In this document: positions 14,454 through 18,175 of the stretch, piece by piece
How positions within the stretch are numbered: the stretch's first letter is position 1
Layout: every line of letters starts with the position of its first letter
NCBI GenBank assembly: GCA_944322875.1
Contig: CALUQI010000001.1
Span: 3,467 to 67,466 of the forward strand
Direction of reading: 5' to 3'
DNA from: Candidatus Gastranaerophilales bacterium
Lineage (GTDB): Bacteria > Cyanobacteriota > Vampirovibrionia > Gastranaerophilales > Gastranaerophilaceae
DNA: 64,000 bases
Notes under the pieces: model-generated
Seen by the model: only the letters and a program-made list of their open reading frames with translations
Told to the model about the DNA's origin: nothing
Database searches by the model: none
Program-made: the position numbers and the translations under genes

Positions 14454-15200
14454 ATGATTATGAAATCCGATATTGATGCTTTGGTTTTGAAATATGAAAC
14501 TATTGATTTTGTTAAAAATGATCCAATACAGTTTCCCAAAAGATATTCGGACAAAAAAGATGTGGAAATATCGGCTTTTATAGCGTCATTGTTAGCATAT
14601 GGCAGGCGTGATGTTTTTATAAAGAAACTTGAAGATTTATTTGATATTGCTCAAAATGAACCTTATAATTTTATAATGAACTTTGAGTCCGGTATGCTTG
14701 GTAATTTTAATTATAGATTTGGTAAATCCCAAGATTTTTCACAAATTTTTTCAATTATGCGTGAACTTTATGAAAGTAATTCAGGTCTGGAATCTTTGTT
14801 TAAATATGCTTTTGAAAATCCTGTTGAAAATAATGTGTTTATACCTGTAATTGATTATTTTTATTCGCGTGTTAAAGAACCTGTTGGGCAAGGGTTTTAT
14901 TTTATGCTTCCTAATCCGAGAAATGGCGGTGCTATGAAGCGTATGTGCATGTTTTTGCGTTGGATGGTTAGAAAAGGACCAGTTGATCTTGGAATTTGGG
15001 ATTTTATCTTGCCGTCAAATTTATTAATTCCGCTGGATGTCCATGTCGCAAGAATTTCGCGTGAAATGGGTTTGTTGAAAAGGACTTCTAACGACTTTAA
15101 AGCCGTTTTAGAATTAACTGAAAACCTTAAAAAATTTGATTATAACGATCCAATTAAATACGATTTTGCTATGTTCGGATATGGTGTTGATAATTCTTGA
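14454..15200 (+). CDS. Conserved hypothetical protein, probably the TIGR02757/DUF2400 family
   Basis: 248 aa. N-terminal DPIQFPKRYSDKKDVEISAFIASLLAYGRRD and C-terminal PLDVHVARISREMGLL resemble my recollection of this family. Not verifiable here. Confidence 0.45.
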   Translation: MIMKSDIDALVLKYETIDFVKNDPIQFPKRYSDKKDVEISAFIASLLAYGRRDVFIKKLEDLFDIAQNEPYNFIMNFESGMLGNFNYRFGKSQDFSQIFSIMRELYESNSGLESLFKYAFENPVENNVFIPVIDYFYSRVKEPVGQGFYFMLPNPRNGGAMKRMCMFLRWMVRKGPVDLGIWDFILPSNLLIPLDVHVARISREMGLLKRTSNDFKAVLELTENLKKFDYNDPIKYDFAMFGYGVDNS

Positions 15201-15202
15201 GT

Positions 15203-16312
15203 TTATTGCTTGCAAAATACAGATTTATTTGATGTTGAACGAGCCCTGTCACCCCAGTTTCCATCGTCGGATGGATTGCCAAAATATCCTATAACTAGGG
15301 CCCTACGCATTGTTGAATAGTTTCCGACACCTGAAGTTGCGTTGTTGTATTCAGTGTCACCCCACAGATATGTCCAAGATGTTTTTCCAGTTTTCGTGAG
15401 CCCTAAAGCATATGCTCTTTCTTCATTTTGGAAAACGTAACTTGCTAATGTGTCCAGTTCTGCAGATGTTAGCATATTTTGTTTCCCTCCGCAGTATTTC
15501 ACTGCACCTGCCCAATAATCAGTATCAGATTTGCAATCGTTTATACCGAGTTCTGATTTTAAATTTTCACATTCTGCACTTGTTATTGCAGGTGGCTTTG
15601 CTATTGCTTTTATGCAAGCATCACCTATTTTAAAAGCACAGCCTTCATCACCTACTGTTGCATTTGAAAGTCGGATATCCTTGTTTTTTTGATTAGGTTT
15701 GGAAAAACTTGTTGTATCGTATATCAACGCTATACAATCTGTTGAAAACTTGATGTTGTTTTTATCACCTGATATTCCAATAGCATTATTATCAAAAGGG
15801 TTAGCATTACATTGAGGGTTATAAGCAATTATTCCGCTTACTCCGTTTGCAAATTGTAACCCCATTGTATTTGTACCCCAGTCCTTTTTCCCAAGTTCTT
15901 TTGCTGTCTTCAAGCTTTCTGCTTTTGTTGGTGAATTTGGGTCATTTGAATATGTGCTTTCGTCAGATAAGTTGACTACACTTGTTGCTCCGTTTATTTC
16001 CTCTGTAAAACATTCATTTAATTGAGTATTATCGCAAATCTTTGTTATTTTTATATATTTTTGCAGGTTATTTACAAAATTTTCAGTAGTTCCGAGCCCA
16101 ACCAGATTTTGTTGGGTGTTCATTATTCTTAATGCTTCACCTAACTTTGTTTCAAATGCACTTGCTGCTGTATTTTGTTGTTTTGTTTGATAATTATTAA
16201 CCAAATTAGGAATAGTCAACGCAGCAACGACACCAATAACGGTAATAGTGATTAAGACTTCAGCAAGAGTAAAAGCATAACGACGATATTTAACTTTGCC
16301 AAAAGATTTCAT
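15203..16312 (-). CDS. Prepilin-type N-terminal cleavage/methylation domain protein (type IV pilin-like / T2SS pseudopilin-like) with a large Cys-rich C-terminal domain
   Basis: MKSFGKVKYRRY-AFTLAEVLITITVIGVVAALTIPNL is a class III signal motif. About 340 aa follow, containing 10 Cys. I place the start at ATG 16312 (GGAGG just upstream) rather than the track's alternative start at 16336. Confidence 0.8.
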   Translation of the reverse strand: MKSFGKVKYRRYAFTLAEVLITITVIGVVAALTIPNLVNNYQTKQQNTAASAFETKLGEALRIMNTQQNLVGLGTTENFVNNLQKYIKITKICDNTQLNECFTEEINGATSVVNLSDESTYSNDPNSPTKAESLKTAKELGKKDWGTNTMGLQFANGVSGIIAYNPQCNANPFDNNAIGISGDKNNIKFSTDCIALIYDTTSFSKPNQKNKDIRLSNATVGDEGCAFKIGDACIKAIAKPPAITSAECENLKSELGINDCKSDTDYWAGAVKYCGGKQNMLTSAELDTLASYVFQNEERAYALGLTKTGKTSWTYLWGDTEYNNATSGVGNYSTMRRALVIGYFGNPSDDGNWGDRARSTSNKSVFCKQ

Positions 16313-16345
16313 AAACCCTCCAAACCTATAGATCAACCTAATTAA

Positions 16346-16374
16346 ATTATAGTAATGAAACCTTGTAAAGTCAA
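16346..16374 (-). promoter_or_regulatory. Proximal sigma70-type promoter of the pilin-like gene
   Basis: On the minus strand: TTGACT (16374..16369), 17-nt spacer, TATAAT (16351..16346). Confidence 0.5.
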
Positions 16375-16392
16375 GTGAACAAAGGATTTGGG

Positions 16393-16461
16393 CTATCTGC
16401 CCCCCCCCCCTGTAAGAAAACTAGATATAGTATGCATTTTAAGGATTGTTATCTTTCTCAT
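16393..16461 (-). CDS. Candidate 22-codon leader ORF containing the poly-G tract
   Basis: GGGAGA-N7-ATG (ATG at 16461). Translation MRKITILKMHTISSFLTGGGGR*. The Gly codons are the G11 tract. There is no homology support. Confidence 0.25.
   Translation of the reverse strand: MRKITILKMHTISSFLTGGGGR
16400..16410. repeat. Homopolymeric C11 (G11 on the coding strand) tract
   Basis: Read directly: ...ctatctgCCCCCCCCCCCtgtaag... I saw no other G/C homopolymer longer than about 5 nt in the window. Confidence 0.95.
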
Positions 16462-16493
16462 TTTTCTGTCTCCCTTCGGTTAACGATGTAGCT

Positions 16494-16522
16494 ATATTAA
16501 TATTTTTCTCTGATTTTGTCAA
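16494..16522 (-). promoter_or_regulatory. Distal sigma70-type promoter upstream of the leader ORF
   Basis: On the minus strand: TTGACA (16522..16517), 17-nt spacer, TAATAT (16499..16494). Confidence 0.4.
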
Positions 16523-16540
16523 TACAAATATTTATGCGCA

Positions 16541-16570
16541 CAAAATAAAAGGCGATGGAGGGCACCGCCT
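16541..16570 (-). terminator. Probable terminator of the REC-GGDEF gene
   Basis: On the minus strand: GGCGGTG-ccctc-CATCGCC (one mismatch) followed by TTTTATTTTG. Confidence 0.4.
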
Positions 16571-16627
16571 ATTAACCAGATATACACACTTTTTAAAGTG
16601 TTCAGAAAGGAGGATTTTTAAATAATT

Positions 16628-17500
16628 CTATTCTCCTAGGTTTATCTGTGAGAATTGAACTATTTTGTTTTTACCGCGTTTTTTTGCGTTATATAATGCG
16701 TGTTCTGCATAGCGAATTATTGTATTTGCATCTTCTTCTGCAGCTTCTATACAAGGATATGTTGAAATCCCACCTGATATTGTTATAGGGTGTCTTTCTT
16801 CTTCTCCTGCCGGTATGAATTCCATTTTCTCTATATCGCGCCTGAATCTTTCTGCAAACAGAAATGCATTATCTTCTGATGTGTTAGGTAAGATTAGTAG
16901 AAATTCTTCGTCACCATATCTTGTTAAAACATCTTCTTTTCTTATTAATTGCTTTAATTTGTCCGCAATTGAACGTAAAAGTACATCTCCCCATTCGTAT
17001 CCATATATGTCATTAACAACCTTAAAAAAGTCAAGATCAAACAGTAAACATGAAAGACTTGTACCGTATCTTCTTGCGCGTGAAATTTCTTGTTCTAAAC
17101 GTTCATTGAGATATTTTCTGTTATGTAATCCGGTAAGTTCATCAGTAGTTGAAACTACTTTTAGCTTTTCTCTCAGATCTCTAATTTTTAAAAGACAATT
17201 TGTCCGGATTAAAAGTTCTTCATTATCAACCGGCGTCTTTATATAGTCATAAGCCACTGCTCTAACGGTTGTTCCTTTAAATGACTCTCCTATGAACAGT
17301 ACTGGAACTTTAAATTTTATTACCATTAAAATCTCTTTTAAATCAGGTACATTTTCAACAACAACTATTGCCGGATTAAGGGTTTCATATTCTTTAAGTT
17401 TTGATGCTTGTTCTATCCTGATATTAGTATCATCAATTTTCGATAATATATCCGATATGTTTGAAACGTTTTTGTCTGTATATATTATAATATTTCTCAT
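16628..17500 (-). CDS. Receiver-like domain fused to a degenerate GGDEF domain (GDEEF)
   Basis: 290 aa. The GGDEF domain is clear (LTGLHNRKY, FDLDFFKVVND, RKED-x5-GDEEF). The DNA at 16901..16915 reads GGT GAC GAA GAA TTT on the coding strand. The receiver has Glu where the phospho-Asp is expected (VVVENVPD). Confidence 0.85.
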   Translation of the reverse strand: MRNIIIYTDKNVSNISDILSKIDDTNIRIEQASKLKEYETLNPAIVVVENVPDLKEILMVIKFKVPVLFIGESFKGTTVRAVAYDYIKTPVDNEELLIRTNCLLKIRDLREKLKVVSTTDELTGLHNRKYLNERLEQEISRARRYGTSLSCLLFDLDFFKVVNDIYGYEWGDVLLRSIADKLKQLIRKEDVLTRYGDEEFLLILPNTSEDNAFLFAERFRRDIEKMEFIPAGEEERHPITISGGISTYPCIEAAEEDANTIIRYAEHALYNAKKRGKNKIVQFSQINLGE

Positions 17501-17671
17501 TGAAACTTCCCCTAAGTTAACCTCTATAAGAGTTTAACATAGCGTGCATGTCAAATCAAAATTGTTACATTTGTTTAACAAAATTAATTTTAGCAAAATT
17601 TTTGATATTTATTTTCTATTAATATCTAAAAGATTTTTATTTTGATTAATTTATTGTGGTAAAATAATTTT

Positions 17672-18175
17672 ATGGAAATAACTGTCAAAAGAATGCAAAA
17701 AACCGATCTTGATGCGGTTATGCTTATTGAAGAACAGGCTTATGGTGAGCATCATTGGTCTAAAGATTCTTTTTTAAGTGAGCTTGCTAACAGTTTGGCG
17801 CGTTATTACAGCGCATTCAATGACGAAGGATTTTTGATAGGTTATGCAGGCAGTTGGCAAATTTTGGAGGAAGTACATATTACAAATATTGCTGTTGCTC
17901 CCGATTACAGAAGGAAAAAAGTCGGTGAAACTCTTTTAAGAAGTATTATTGATGATTGTTACTTAAACAAAGCTAAGTATATTACCTTAGAAGTTAGAGT
18001 ATCAAATATTGCCGCGATAAATTTGTATGAAAAATACGGATTTAAATCTTTAGGTACTCGCAAGGGATATTACCAAAATAATAATGAAGATGCATTAATA
18101 ATGTGGACAGAAAATATATTTTACGATAAATTTAAATTGAATTACGAAAAAATTGTTTCCAGAGGGCTAAAATGA
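17672..18175 (+). CDS. rimI: Ribosomal-protein-alanine N-acetyltransferase (GNAT)
   Basis: 167 aa. GNAT motif A (RRKKVGETLL). RimI-like length and N-terminal IEEQAY pattern. Confidence 0.75.
   Translation: MEITVKRMQKTDLDAVMLIEEQAYGEHHWSKDSFLSELANSLARYYSAFNDEGFLIGYAGSWQILEEVHITNIAVAPDYRRKKVGETLLRSIIDDCYLNKAKYITLEVRVSNIAAINLYEKYGFKSLGTRKGYYQNNNEDALIMWTENIFYDKFKLNYEKIVSRGLK

What the first reader, a model, noticed from the sequence alone, without database searches (positions are those of the whole stretch)
16337..16627. G11/C11 tract inside a leader ORF upstream of the pilin-like gene: candidate slipped-strand phase switch
A C11 run (16400..16410; G11 on the coding strand) sits in a strongly AT-rich sequence where I saw no other G/C homopolymer longer than about 5 nt.

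Read on the minus strand, the 290-nt spacer contains, in order:
- the GGDEF-gene terminator;
- TTGACA-17-TAATAT (16522..16494);
- GGGAGA-N7-ATG (16461), opening MRKITILKMHTISSFLTGGGGR*, whose Gly codons are the tract (stop at 16395..16393);
- TTGACT-17-TATAAT (16374..16346);
- GGAGG and the pilin ATG (16312).

Frame arithmetic gives three states. With G12 the leader ATG is in frame with the pilin ORF and no stop intervenes (...TGGGGQIAQILCSLDFTRFHYYNLIRLIYRFGGF-MKSFGK...). With G10 the leader becomes a 30-codon peptide ending at a TGA inside the proximal -35 box. With G11, as sequenced, it is a 22-codon peptide.

G/C homopolymers of this length are the classic substrate for slipped-strand phase variation of pili and adhesins in Neisseria, Haemophilus, Campylobacter and Helicobacter.
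Basis: partly seen in the sequence, partly recalled or inferred. Interest (0 to 1): 0.6.

Follow-up and report, generated by a model that had tools for sequence, protein, structure and literature searches.

The report
Poly-G slippage switch before pilin gene
An 11-G run upstream of a pilus-subunit-like gene in an uncultured gut relative of cyanobacteria (Gastranaerophilales) is one of many slippage-prone on/off switches on this gene family, a mechanism known from pathogens that I found no report of in this lineage, although this copy also has its own promoter and start codon that may bypass the switch.

Summary
G11 lies at 16410..16400 on the minus strand, and no other G/C run in the window exceeds 5 nt.

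It is not an isolated oddity. The 1.49-Mb genome has no G/C runs of 7-8 nt but 11 runs of 9-11 nt. All 11 sit in the same place: after an SD plus ATG and 8-17 codons, upstream of a prepilin motif (A/G|FTLAEVLIT...).

Related genomes of the same family carry 74-176 such tracts each. Other families of the order carry almost none. 48 of 60 sampled tracts had a prepilin motif downstream in an automatic scan, and inspection raised this to about 55 of 60. As assembled, 10 of 45 scorable loci are ON and 35 OFF.

Independent assemblies of this species differ in tract length at 4 of 7 loci. The window locus reads G10 versus G11, with only one SNP elsewhere in 4 kb.

The slipped-strand reading is therefore supported. 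The special point here is a 30-nt in-frame insertion that gives this copy its own promoter, SD and ATG, so the tract may modulate the gene rather than gate it absolutely.

The mechanism is classical (Neisseria pilC/opa type). The lineage, the gene family and the scale are unreported in the literature searched.

The parts
16628..17500 (-). Upstream GGDEF-domain gene. It is context only and a separate transcription unit.
   Evidence: PF00990, E=2e-44. ORF listed.
16550..16570 (-). Terminator-like hairpin plus T-run that ends the GGDEF unit.
   Evidence: 8-bp stem with 5 GC pairs, followed by TTTATTTTGT.
16494..16522 (-). Distal promoter-like site, TTGACA-17-TAATAT.
   Evidence: 10/12 match. Paralogs carry TTGCCA-17-TATAAT with a TG extension at the equivalent place.
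16469..16474 (-). Leader Shine-Dalgarno GGGAGA, 7 nt before the leader ATG.
   Evidence: Sequence. Paralogs have GGAGGA 7-9 nt before their leader ATG.
16393..16461 (-). Leader ORF as sequenced: 22 codons plus stop, MRKITILKMHTISSFLTGGGGR*. With G9 or G12 it reads on into the pilin frame.
16400..16410 (-). G11 homopolymer (C11 on the + strand), the slippage tract.
   Evidence: It reads G10 in the independent assembly L023 and G11 in L024.
16346..16374 (-). Proximal promoter-like site, TTGACT-17-TATAAT. Its -10 lies in a 30-nt insertion specific to 'type B' paralogs.
   Evidence: 11/12 match. Sites this good occur at 0.06 per kb per strand in this genome. The insertion is shown by the paralog alignment.
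16317..16321 (-). Proximal Shine-Dalgarno GGAGG, 4 nt before the pilin ATG.
   Evidence: Sequence. It is present only in type B paralogs.
15203..16312 (-). Pilin-like gene of 369 aa. It has a 13-aa basic leader (MKSFGKVKYRRYA), a cleavage/methylation motif (FTLAEVLITITVIGVVAA), and then about 330 aa of Cys-rich globular domain.
   Evidence: PF07963 at 22.2 bits (cut-off 21.2). TIGR02532 at 20.6 bits (cut-off 16.3). The profile matches the N-terminal helix of solved pilins, E=2e-10. The AF2 model has pLDDT 81 with helix 16-66.

Best explanation
The G11 run is a hypermutable slipped-strand tract. It belongs to a system found across a whole bacterial family, in which poly-G (sometimes poly-C) runs sit in the translated leader of type IV pilin-like genes.

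Ribosomes load at a strong SD/ATG 51 nt upstream of the tract. Tract length decides whether they continue into the prepilin frame or stop.
- **ON (G9 or G12):** a prepilin with a 62-residue leader is made. The glycines encoded by the tract lie upstream of the A|F cleavage site, so prepilin peptidase would remove them with the leader.
- **OFF (G11):** translation stops at the TAG 5 nt after the tract.
- **OFF (G10):** translation stops at the TGA in the proximal -35 box.

The sequenced state is OFF for the leader start.

This copy, unlike the ancestral design, has gained a 30-nt in-frame insertion plus an ACA-to-ATG change. Together these create a proximal promoter, an SD and an ATG. The tract therefore most likely changes how much pilin is made, and from which start, rather than acting as an absolute gate.

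**Shown:** the tract and frame anatomy; the genome-wide and family-wide association with prepilin leaders; the ON/OFF mixture among paralogs; length polymorphism between near-identical assemblies; the presence of prepilin peptidase and assembly ATPases.

**Inferred:** slippage during replication as the cause; translation from the leader ATG; cleavage of the long leader; any effect on pilin level.
For: 1. **Bimodal run lengths.** There are no G/C runs of 7-8 nt but 11 of 9-11 nt in 1.49 Mb.
2. **Same context every time.** All 11 lie 49-126 nt upstream of a prepilin motif on the coding strand, or at contig ends carrying the same leader. Each follows an SD plus ATG and 8-17 codons.
3. **Some paralogs depend wholly on the tract.** Three paralogs (C65, C74, C79) have no ATG/GTG/TTG in frame between the tract and the cleavage site apart from an SD-less ATG at the tract's own 5' edge, so SD-driven translation depends on tract length.
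4. **Mixed states in one genome.** C26 (G10), C72 (G9) and C96 (G10) are in frame. The other eight are out of frame by 1-2 nt.
5. **Relatives.** Tracts of 9 nt or more number 74-176 per genome in 7 genomes of the family and 0 in two genomes of other families (broader 9-mer counts). An automatic scan found a prepilin motif downstream of 30 of 40 tracts sampled in the genus and 18 of 20 in another genus. Inspection of the rest raised the genus figure to about 37 of 40. Of 45 loci with an open frame from tract to motif, 10 are ON and 35 OFF, usually one slip from ON.
6. **Length polymorphism in near-identical DNA.**
   - Window locus: G11, G11 and G10, with 1 SNP in 3,986 bp.
   - C49 locus: G11 versus G12, with no other difference from this genome over about 1.8 kb.
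   - C79 locus: G11 versus G10. C65 locus: G10 versus G11.
7. **Open fusion frame.** The frame from the tract to the pilin ATG is open for 42 codons in 33%-GC DNA. By my estimate the chance of that is about 4%. The other two frames close within 1-10 codons.
8. **Machinery present.** The genome encodes a prepilin peptidase (PF01478) and four T2SSE/PilB-type ATPases.
9. **Nucleotide-level selection.** GGG is only 10.6% of Gly codons.
Against:
- The assemblies compared have low coverage (about 3x). The BRZ_* and ONAT22-1_* sets may be two assemblies of the same samples, so some length differences could be homopolymer errors.
- Three of 7 loci were invariant: C74 (G11 in 8 assemblies counting this genome, one further assembly carrying a T-to-G change at the tract edge with no change in length), C26 (G10 in 3) and C48 (G9 in 3).
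- At this locus a good proximal promoter (11/12), a GGAGG and an ATG followed by a canonical 13-aa basic leader could express the pilin whatever the tract length.
- One type B paralog (C20) has let its tract decay to GGGGGGTG. This suggests relaxed selection on the tract once the bypass exists.
- MutS and MutL are present. Slippage is therefore not boosted by loss of mismatch repair as it is in Campylobacter and Helicobacter.
- The leader RNA has no significant structure, z=0.27, and no Rfam match. Nothing points to a coupling device at this copy.
Confidence: 0.68

Rival explanations
1. Bypassed relic. The tract is mutable, but at this copy it no longer matters. The pilin is transcribed from the proximal TTGACT-17-TATAAT promoter and translated from its own GGAGG/ATG. 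The leader ORF and tract are leftovers of the ancestral design, kept only by recent duplication or gene conversion among paralogs.
For: - The 30-nt insertion supplies the -10 box and the SD, and an adjacent ACA-to-ATG change supplies the start codon.
- The promoter matches 11/12 with good geometry, and such sites are rare at 0.06 per kb per strand.
- The proximal ATG is followed by a canonical short basic prepilin leader.
- Type B paralog C20 has a decayed tract.
- The block from the -35 box to the N-terminal coding region is almost identical among type B paralogs, while sequence upstream of it diverges in the window copy.
Against: - Four of the five type B copies whose tract region is assembled still keep tracts of 9-11 nt.
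- The insertion is a multiple of 3 and free of stops in the fusion frame, and the window's diverged 24 nt after the tract also keep that frame open.
- The distal promoter, SD and ATG are retained although their sequence has diverged from the paralogs.
Confidence: 0.24
2. Transcriptional switch. Tract length acts on promoter function, through the spacing of an upstream activator site or UP element relative to the proximal promoter, rather than on the reading frame.
For: The tract ends 25 nt upstream of the proximal -35 box, based on the coordinates. Promoter-associated homopolymers are a known class of switch (established knowledge: Neisseria porA/opc, Haemophilus hif, Mycoplasma vlp).
Against: - The tract is not between a -35 and a -10 box. 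It lies 83 nt downstream of the distal -10 and outside the proximal core promoter.
- In most relatives the tract lies 23-40 nt before the cleavage site, inside the only available ORF and with no promoter downstream.
- Every tract is preceded by an SD plus ATG at a fixed short distance, which a promoter-spacing model does not need.
Confidence: 0.04
3. Artefact, or fixed glycine coding. Either the run is a sequencing or assembly artefact such as two-colour poly-G or homopolymer miscalls, or it simply encodes a Gly stretch that is always in frame and the apparent OFF states are errors.
For: - Several tracts lie near contig ends.
- Coverage of the compared contigs is about 3x.
- Homopolymers are error-prone.
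Against: - The window tract lies 19.8 kb inside a 67-kb contig, with conserved flanks on both sides.
- The same design recurs in dozens of MAGs with lengths tightly spread over 9-13 nt.
- Contig ends fall in the repeated 5' region shared by the paralogs.
- About three quarters of loci are out of frame, too many to be miscalls.
- GGG is the rarest Gly codon.
Confidence: 0.03

Closest known systems
Neisseria gonorrhoeae/meningitidis pilC1/pilC2: homopolymeric G/C tract within the reading frame, in the signal-peptide region according to Jonsson et al. 1991 (my own knowledge); summarised in PMC5953494 as 'G (9-20), genic'
   Same: - A homopolymer of about 9-20 nt lies near the 5' end of a pilus-related gene.
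- Slippage by one base throws the body of the gene out of frame.
- The residues encoded by the tract lie in a cleaved N-terminal leader, so in-frame length variants leave the mature protein unchanged.
   Different: - PilC is a tip adhesin and retraction modulator with a Sec signal peptide, not a pilin with a class III (prepilin) leader.
- Neisseria has two copies per genome, against 11 here and up to 176 in relatives.
- There is no homology.
- The window copy also has a second promoter and start downstream of the tract.
Neisseria opa family: CTTCT/CTCTT pentamer repeats in the signal-peptide coding region of about 4-12 paralogs (PMC5953494)
   Same: - It is a dispersed multigene family of surface proteins.
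- Each copy is gated independently by a repeat in the leader-coding region, giving combinatorial expression.
- Paralogs share conserved 5' ends and recombine.
   Different: - The repeat is a pentamer, not a homopolymer.
- The proteins are outer-membrane beta-barrels, not pilin-like.
- The Neisseria family is far smaller.
Bifidobacterium breve UCC2003 sortase-dependent pilus loci with an intragenic G-tract (Penno et al. 2022, PMC9187656)
   Same: - It is a gut commensal.
[quoted passage not shown]
- Equivalents occur across the genus.
- That study shows the method (Maximum Depth Sequencing) that would settle the present case.
   Different: - Those are sortase-dependent Gram-positive pili, with two loci per genome.
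- The tract there is internal to the gene, not in a cleaved leader.
- It has been demonstrated experimentally, whereas nothing here has been tested at the bench.
Campylobacter jejuni / Helicobacter pylori poly-G/C contingency genes (for example PMC8437040, PMC5380846)
   Same: Both have an AT-rich small genome in which long G/C homopolymers are strongly over-represented and mark phase-variable surface-structure genes.
   Different: - Those tracts are mostly in glycosyltransferase, capsule, LOS and flagellar-modification genes.
- Those organisms lack MutS1/MutL-type mismatch repair (my own knowledge), whereas MutS and MutL are present here.
- They have some tens of tracts per genome (my own knowledge), against about 75-176 in this family.
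Modular type IV pilins, that is pilins with a grafted functional module, such as Streptococcus sanguinis PilB/PilC (my own knowledge; general background in PMC6497953)
   Same: Both have an N-terminal class III signal peptide and alpha1 helix, followed by a large extra globular domain that could act as an adhesin.
   Different: The globular part here (about 330 aa, 10 conserved Cys) has no Pfam domain and no PDB fold match (Foldseek E>1). No relation to those modules is shown.

Membership tests
SSR-mediated (slipped-strand) translational phase-variable locus / contingency gene | Homopolymer long enough to be hypermutable (about 8-9 nt or more for G/C) and over-represented relative to base composition | tested here: met
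   G11 is present. The genome has 0 runs of 7-8 nt but 11 of 9-11 nt. The window's next longest run is 5 nt.
SSR-mediated (slipped-strand) translational phase-variable locus / contingency gene | The tract lies inside a translated frame, so a change of 1 nt in either direction switches between a full-length product and early termination | tested here: met
   From the leader ATG, G9 or G12 gives 418 or 419 aa, G10 gives 29 aa and G11 gives 22 aa. Translation of the leader ORF itself is inferred from its SD and ATG.
SSR-mediated (slipped-strand) translational phase-variable locus / contingency gene | Tract length differs between otherwise identical or near-identical genomes | tested here: met
   The window locus reads G10 versus G11 with 1 SNP in 3,986 bp. 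Four of 7 loci of the species are length-polymorphic. Caveat: the assemblies have low coverage and some may come from the same samples.
SSR-mediated (slipped-strand) translational phase-variable locus / contingency gene | Length heterogeneity within one population, and reversible high-frequency ON/OFF switching of the product | not testable with these tools
The organism is uncultured.
SSR-mediated (slipped-strand) translational phase-variable locus / contingency gene | Expression of the gene depends on the tract, with no tract-independent route | tested here: inconclusive
   Type A paralogs have no SD-equipped start after the tract, only an SD-less ATG at the tract's edge. The window copy (type B) has its own promoter-like site, GGAGG and ATG downstream of the tract.
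Type IV pilin-like protein (class III signal peptide) | N-terminal cleavage/methylation motif (G/A|F-x-x-x-E) followed by a hydrophobic alpha1 helix | tested here: met
   PF07963 scores 22.2 bits against a cut-off of 21.2. TIGR02532 scores 20.6 against 16.3. The profile hits the N-terminal helix of solved pilins at E=2e-10. The AF2 model has helix 16-66. Residue -1 is Ala rather than Gly.
Type IV pilin-like protein (class III signal peptide) | Prepilin peptidase and assembly ATPase encoded in the same genome | tested here: met
   PF01478 is found at C13:7207-7596 above its cut-off. Four PF00437 hits are above their cut-off.
Type IV pilin-like protein (class III signal peptide) | Processing by the peptidase and incorporation into a filament | not testable with these tools
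   No experimental or proteomic data are available.
Promoter-spacer homopolymer switch (transcriptional phase variation) | The tract lies between, or overlaps, the -35 and -10 elements | tested here: not met
   The tract (16400..16410) lies 83 nt downstream of the distal -10 (16494) and 25 nt upstream of the proximal -35 (16374).

The most novel reading that the evidence does not exclude
Gut Gastranaerophilales of this family may carry the largest homopolymer 'phasome' yet seen: 74-176 G/C tracts of 9 nt or more per genome of roughly 2 Mb. Almost all sit in the cleavable leader of dispersed, modular pilin-like genes, so each cell would display a random small subset of about 100 alternative filament subunits or adhesins.

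Placing the tract in a prepilin leader would make in-frame length variants invisible in the mature protein.

Copies like the window's, with a secondary promoter, SD and ATG inserted downstream of the tract, would be an evolutionary route from binary gating to graded or constitutive expression.
Probability: 0.45. Interest if true: 0.7.

Novelty: new member of a known kind. Interest (0 to 1): 0.55.

Why it matters
Phase variation through repeats is textbook biology for a handful of cultured pathogens. Here the same device appears in an uncultured, non-pathogenic gut lineage, the sister group of photosynthetic cyanobacteria, and on a scale of tens to more than a hundred loci per small genome. All of these loci sit on one family of pilin-like surface proteins whose globular domain is of unknown fold.

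If confirmed, this would have three consequences:
- These commensals would be seen to diversify their surface filaments stochastically. Plausible reasons are pilus-binding phages, host IgA or changing attachment targets.
- It would explain why their MAGs fragment at these genes.
- Pilin genes annotated as frameshifted or 5'-truncated in such MAGs would be recognised as switch states, not pseudogenes.

The window copy adds a natural experiment, since it carries the same leader and tract with a bypass promoter and start. Full-text searches found no paper linking Gastranaerophilales or Melainabacteria to phase variation.

Tried and rejected
- **JGI metagenome contigs.** Two exact-pattern scans, one for the window leader and one for the common paralog leader, found nothing.
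- **Genome-contig scan with the pilin.** It returned only two distant loci. These served to name the lineage as Candidatus Gastranaerophilales.
- **Rfam.** No family matched within 15000..18000 at E up to 1.
- **RNA structure of the leader.** The minimum free energy was no better than shuffles, z=0.27. I dropped the idea of a structured riboregulator or a sequestered SD at this copy.
- **Function of the globular domain.** Pfam and NCBIfam hit only the N-terminal pilin motif. The AF2 model (pLDDT 81) had no Foldseek match in the PDB, best E=1.3.
- **Loss of mismatch repair as the cause of instability.** Rejected, because MutS and MutL are present.
- **Exact-protein look-up of the C49 pilin.** It found nothing. 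Look-ups through unique neighbouring genes worked instead.
- **Contig ends inside or next to tracts as evidence of within-sample heterogeneity.** Rejected as uninformative. The paralogs share the leader sequence and differ in tract length, so assembly graphs would branch there anyway.
Full report
**1. The observation**

- a terminator-like hairpin at 16570..16550;
- TTGACA-17-TAATAT at 16522..16494;
- GGGAGA, 7 nt, then ATG at 16461, opening MRKITILKMHTISSFLTGGGGR*;
- the G11 run at 16410..16400;
- TTGACT-17-TATAAT at 16374..16346;
- GGAGG at 16321..16317 and the pilin ATG at 16312.

The frame arithmetic is right. G12 or G9 fuses the leader ATG to the pilin frame with no stop. G10 ends at a TGA in the proximal -35 box. 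G11 ends at a TAG 5 nt after the tract.

No other G/C run in the window exceeds 5 nt.

**2. The tract is one of a set**

The window is C1:3467-67466 of a 1.49-Mb, 98-contig, 33%-GC genome.
- G/C homopolymer lengths are bimodal: 257 runs of 5 nt, 18 of 6 nt, none of 7 or 8 nt, then 11 of 9-11 nt.
- All 11 share one context: a promoter-like site, an SD, an ATG, 8-17 codons, the poly-G run, and then 16-42 codons up to a prepilin cleavage/methylation motif (A/G|F[TS]LAE[VM]LIT...).
- Where the contig ends first, the same conserved leader sequence is present.
- From the SD-equipped leader ATG, three loci are in frame as assembled: C26 (G10), C72 (G9) and C96 (G10). The other eight are 1-2 nt out of frame.
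- GGG is the rarest glycine codon in this genome at 10.6%, so the run is selected as DNA and not as a glycine stretch.

**3. Two architectures**

An alignment of the 5' regions shows two designs.
- **Type A (C65, C74, C79).** No ATG, GTG or TTG lies in frame between the tract and the cleavage site apart from an SD-less ATG at the tract's own edge (section 7). SD-driven translation therefore starts only at the leader ATG, and tract length decides everything.
- **Type B (the window's C1, plus C8, C49, C72, C20, C37).** These carry a 30-nt insertion plus an ACA-to-ATG change. The insertion is in frame and free of stops. Together with a TTGACT that both types already have as codons, it creates a -10 box (TATAAT), a GGAGG and an ATG. 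The ATG is followed by a canonical 13-residue basic prepilin leader.

Promoter-like sites as good as this one (11/12) occur at only 0.06 per kb per strand in this genome, so it is probably real.

One type B copy (C20) has a decayed tract, GGGGGGTG plus an 8-nt deletion.

The window copy therefore has a possible route around its switch. That is the main uncertainty about what the tract does here.

**4. Organism and distribution**

The nearest named records are Candidatus Gastranaerophilales MAGs.
- The pilin-like family is greatly expanded. At least 44 matches were scored (the tool scores at most about 48) in 18 of the 21 other genomes of the genus. 2,343 database homologs reach E of 1e-10 or better, none of them named.
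- 9-mer poly-G hits occur in all 22 genomes of the genus.
- Across the order, 25 of 27 sampled genomes of this family have more than ten 9-mer hits (up to 487). Genomes of other families have 0-10, with four exceptions driven by a few very long runs.
- Counting each tract once gives 11 in this genome, which is fragmented. Seven relatives have 74, 87, 88, 91, 104, 115 and 176. Two genomes of other families have 0.

I fetched 60 tract regions from five relatives.
- In an automatic scan, 30 of 40 in the genus and 18 of 20 in another genus have a prepilin motif within a few hundred nt downstream on the poly-G strand.
- Inspection showed that most of the rest are motif variants, contig ends, or leader ORFs followed by a pilin with its own start. 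That makes about 37 of 40 in the genus pilin-associated.
- The commonest design is AAGGAG, 6 nt, ATG, about 8-12 codons, G9-12, about 8-12 codons, then A/G|FTLAEV.
- Of 45 loci with an open frame from tract to motif, 10 are ON and 35 OFF, typically one slip away from ON.
- At the position syntenic with the window locus, next to the DUF2400 gene, 6 of the 19 other species that have the gene carry a pilin-like gene. Five of those have a 9-nt tract within the fetched locus.

**5. Tract-length polymorphism**

I used exact-protein look-ups of the pilin or of unique neighbouring genes to fetch independent assemblies of the same species.

| Locus | This genome | Other assemblies | Other differences |
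|---|---|---|---|
| Window (C1) | G11 | G11 (L024), G10 (L023) | 1 SNP in 3,986 bp |
| C49 | G11 | G11 in 2, G12 in 2 (L075, L076; in frame) | G12 contigs otherwise identical to this genome over about 1.8 kb |
| C79 | G11 | G10 (in frame) | not compared |
| C65 | G10 | G11 in 6 | not compared |
| C74 | G11 | G11 in 7; one further contig has a T-to-G change at the tract edge with no length change | invariant in length |
| C26 | G10 | G10 in 2 | invariant |
| C48 | G9 | G9 in 2 | invariant |

So 4 of 7 loci vary in length. In the two loci I aligned in full (the window locus and C49), the tract holds the only internal indel.

Caveats: coverage is about 3x for several contigs. The BRZ_* and ONAT22-1_* assemblies may be the same samples assembled twice. 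If so, some differences reflect mixed or ambiguous reads rather than strain differences.

**6. Protein and machinery**

- The 369-aa product passes the N_methyl (PF07963) and TIGR02532 cut-offs.
- A family profile matches the N-terminal helix of solved pilins, E=2e-10.
- An AF2 model (pLDDT 81) shows the long alpha1 helix followed by a beta-rich domain and an alpha/beta domain.
- The globular part has 10 invariant or nearly invariant Cys, no Pfam domain and no PDB fold match.
- The genome encodes a prepilin peptidase and four PilB/T2SSE-type ATPases, as well as MutS and MutL.

**7. Mechanism**

The best-supported reading is classical slipped-strand translational phase variation, with the repeat placed in the cleaved leader peptide. 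This is functionally the arrangement of Neisseria pilC and opa (PMC5953494, plus my own knowledge of Jonsson et al. 1991).

For type A paralogs and most relatives the gate should be nearly absolute. For the window copy I infer three outputs:
- G9 or G12: a long-leader precursor translated from the strong distal start;
- G10 or G11: leader translation aborts 60-80 nt before the pilin ATG;
- in every state, some initiation may occur at the proximal GGAGG/ATG, from either promoter.

I found no RNA structure (z=0.27) or Rfam element that would couple the two ORFs.

Some split loci in a relative (L037, L041) look different. Their one long leader frame runs through a hairpin plus U-tract and stops at the pilin's SD. 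This hints at translational coupling or attenuation there.

RNA-polymerase slippage on the run could add leakiness. This is my own inference and was not tested.

One complication applies to the paralogs but not to the window. In the main leader family the bases before the tract are ...AAAT, so the first G completes a second ATG that has no SD. This second ATG is in frame with the pilin at G11, the commonest length.

**8. Novelty**

Five full-text searches found no paper connecting Gastranaerophilales or Melainabacteria with phase variation, or with homopolymer tracts in pilin leaders. The one genome paper that mentions their pili lists only pilA-D/T genes (PMC5877343).

Earlier AI notes of this scan report the same switch in other genomes of the lineage. 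They agree with what I had already derived independently, but they are not independent evidence.

I rate this as a new member of a known kind. The mechanism is familiar. The lineage, the protein family and the scale are unreported. This particular copy is interesting mainly for its bypass promoter and start.

Noticed in passing
Genome contigs C49:6353, C8:84, C74:6228, C65:278, C97:3204 (paralogs; not in the window): In the main leader family the tract is preceded by ...CTTAAAT, so its first G completes a second ATG that has no SD. At G11, the commonest length, this ATG is in frame with the pilin (MGGGAV[GA]KTRSTLDF...), and gene callers use it. G11 may therefore not be fully OFF at those loci. 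The window locus has ...CTTACA and lacks this ATG.
   Followed up: partly
L105/L108/L109 versus L106/L107 (locus downstream of fabH); L115/L117 versus L116/L118/L119 (locus downstream of prs): At the same chromosomal position, different strains carry different 5' cassettes after the tract, including type A versus type B. This suggests recombination or gene conversion among paralogous pilin 5' regions, though chimeric assembly is also possible.
   Followed up: no
L013, L017, L021, L022, L036, L037, L060 (relatives): Some family members have a duplicated prepilin motif, for example KGFTLAEGATHV...(about 15 aa)...AFTLAEVLITLGIIG. That is two tandem cleavage/methylation-like sites, and the first lacks the hydrophobic helix.
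   Followed up: no
L037 and L041 (G007:C3:~35360, G007:C42:~37700): These are split loci. The tract-bearing leader ORF is separate from a pilin that has its own SD/ATG. The only long frame runs through an AT-rich hairpin plus U-tract and stops within or just before the pilin's SD. This may be phase-variable translational coupling or attenuation.
   Followed up: partly
Genome contig C20:~20990-21010: This type B paralog has a tract decayed to GGGGGGTG with an 8-nt deletion, which locks it out of frame from the leader ATG. The proximal GGAGG/ATG is intact. The gene body is cut by the contig end.
   Followed up: partly
window 15203-16312 (-): The globular part of the pilin-like protein is confidently modelled (pLDDT 81) but matches no PDB fold (Foldseek best E=1.3) and no Pfam domain. 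It has 10 invariant or nearly invariant cysteines and a conserved DYWAGA...C block, across 2,343 unnamed homologs.
   Followed up: partly
L025 (G016:C3:13524), L057 (G008:C27:26748), L043 (G018:C59:5788): A few tracts of 9 nt or more in relatives are not next to a pilin motif. One lies in the intergenic region upstream of a gene that looks by eye like a SIS-domain (GlmS-like) gene. Other genes may therefore also be phase-variable.
   Followed up: no
Genome contigs C8, C72, C96, C97, C74, C79, C65, C37 (ends): Many contigs of this MAG, and of its relatives, end within 20-280 nt of a tract, inside the 5' region shared by the paralogs. The pilin family is a main cause of assembly fragmentation, so the count of 11 tracts in this genome is probably an underestimate.
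   Followed up: partly
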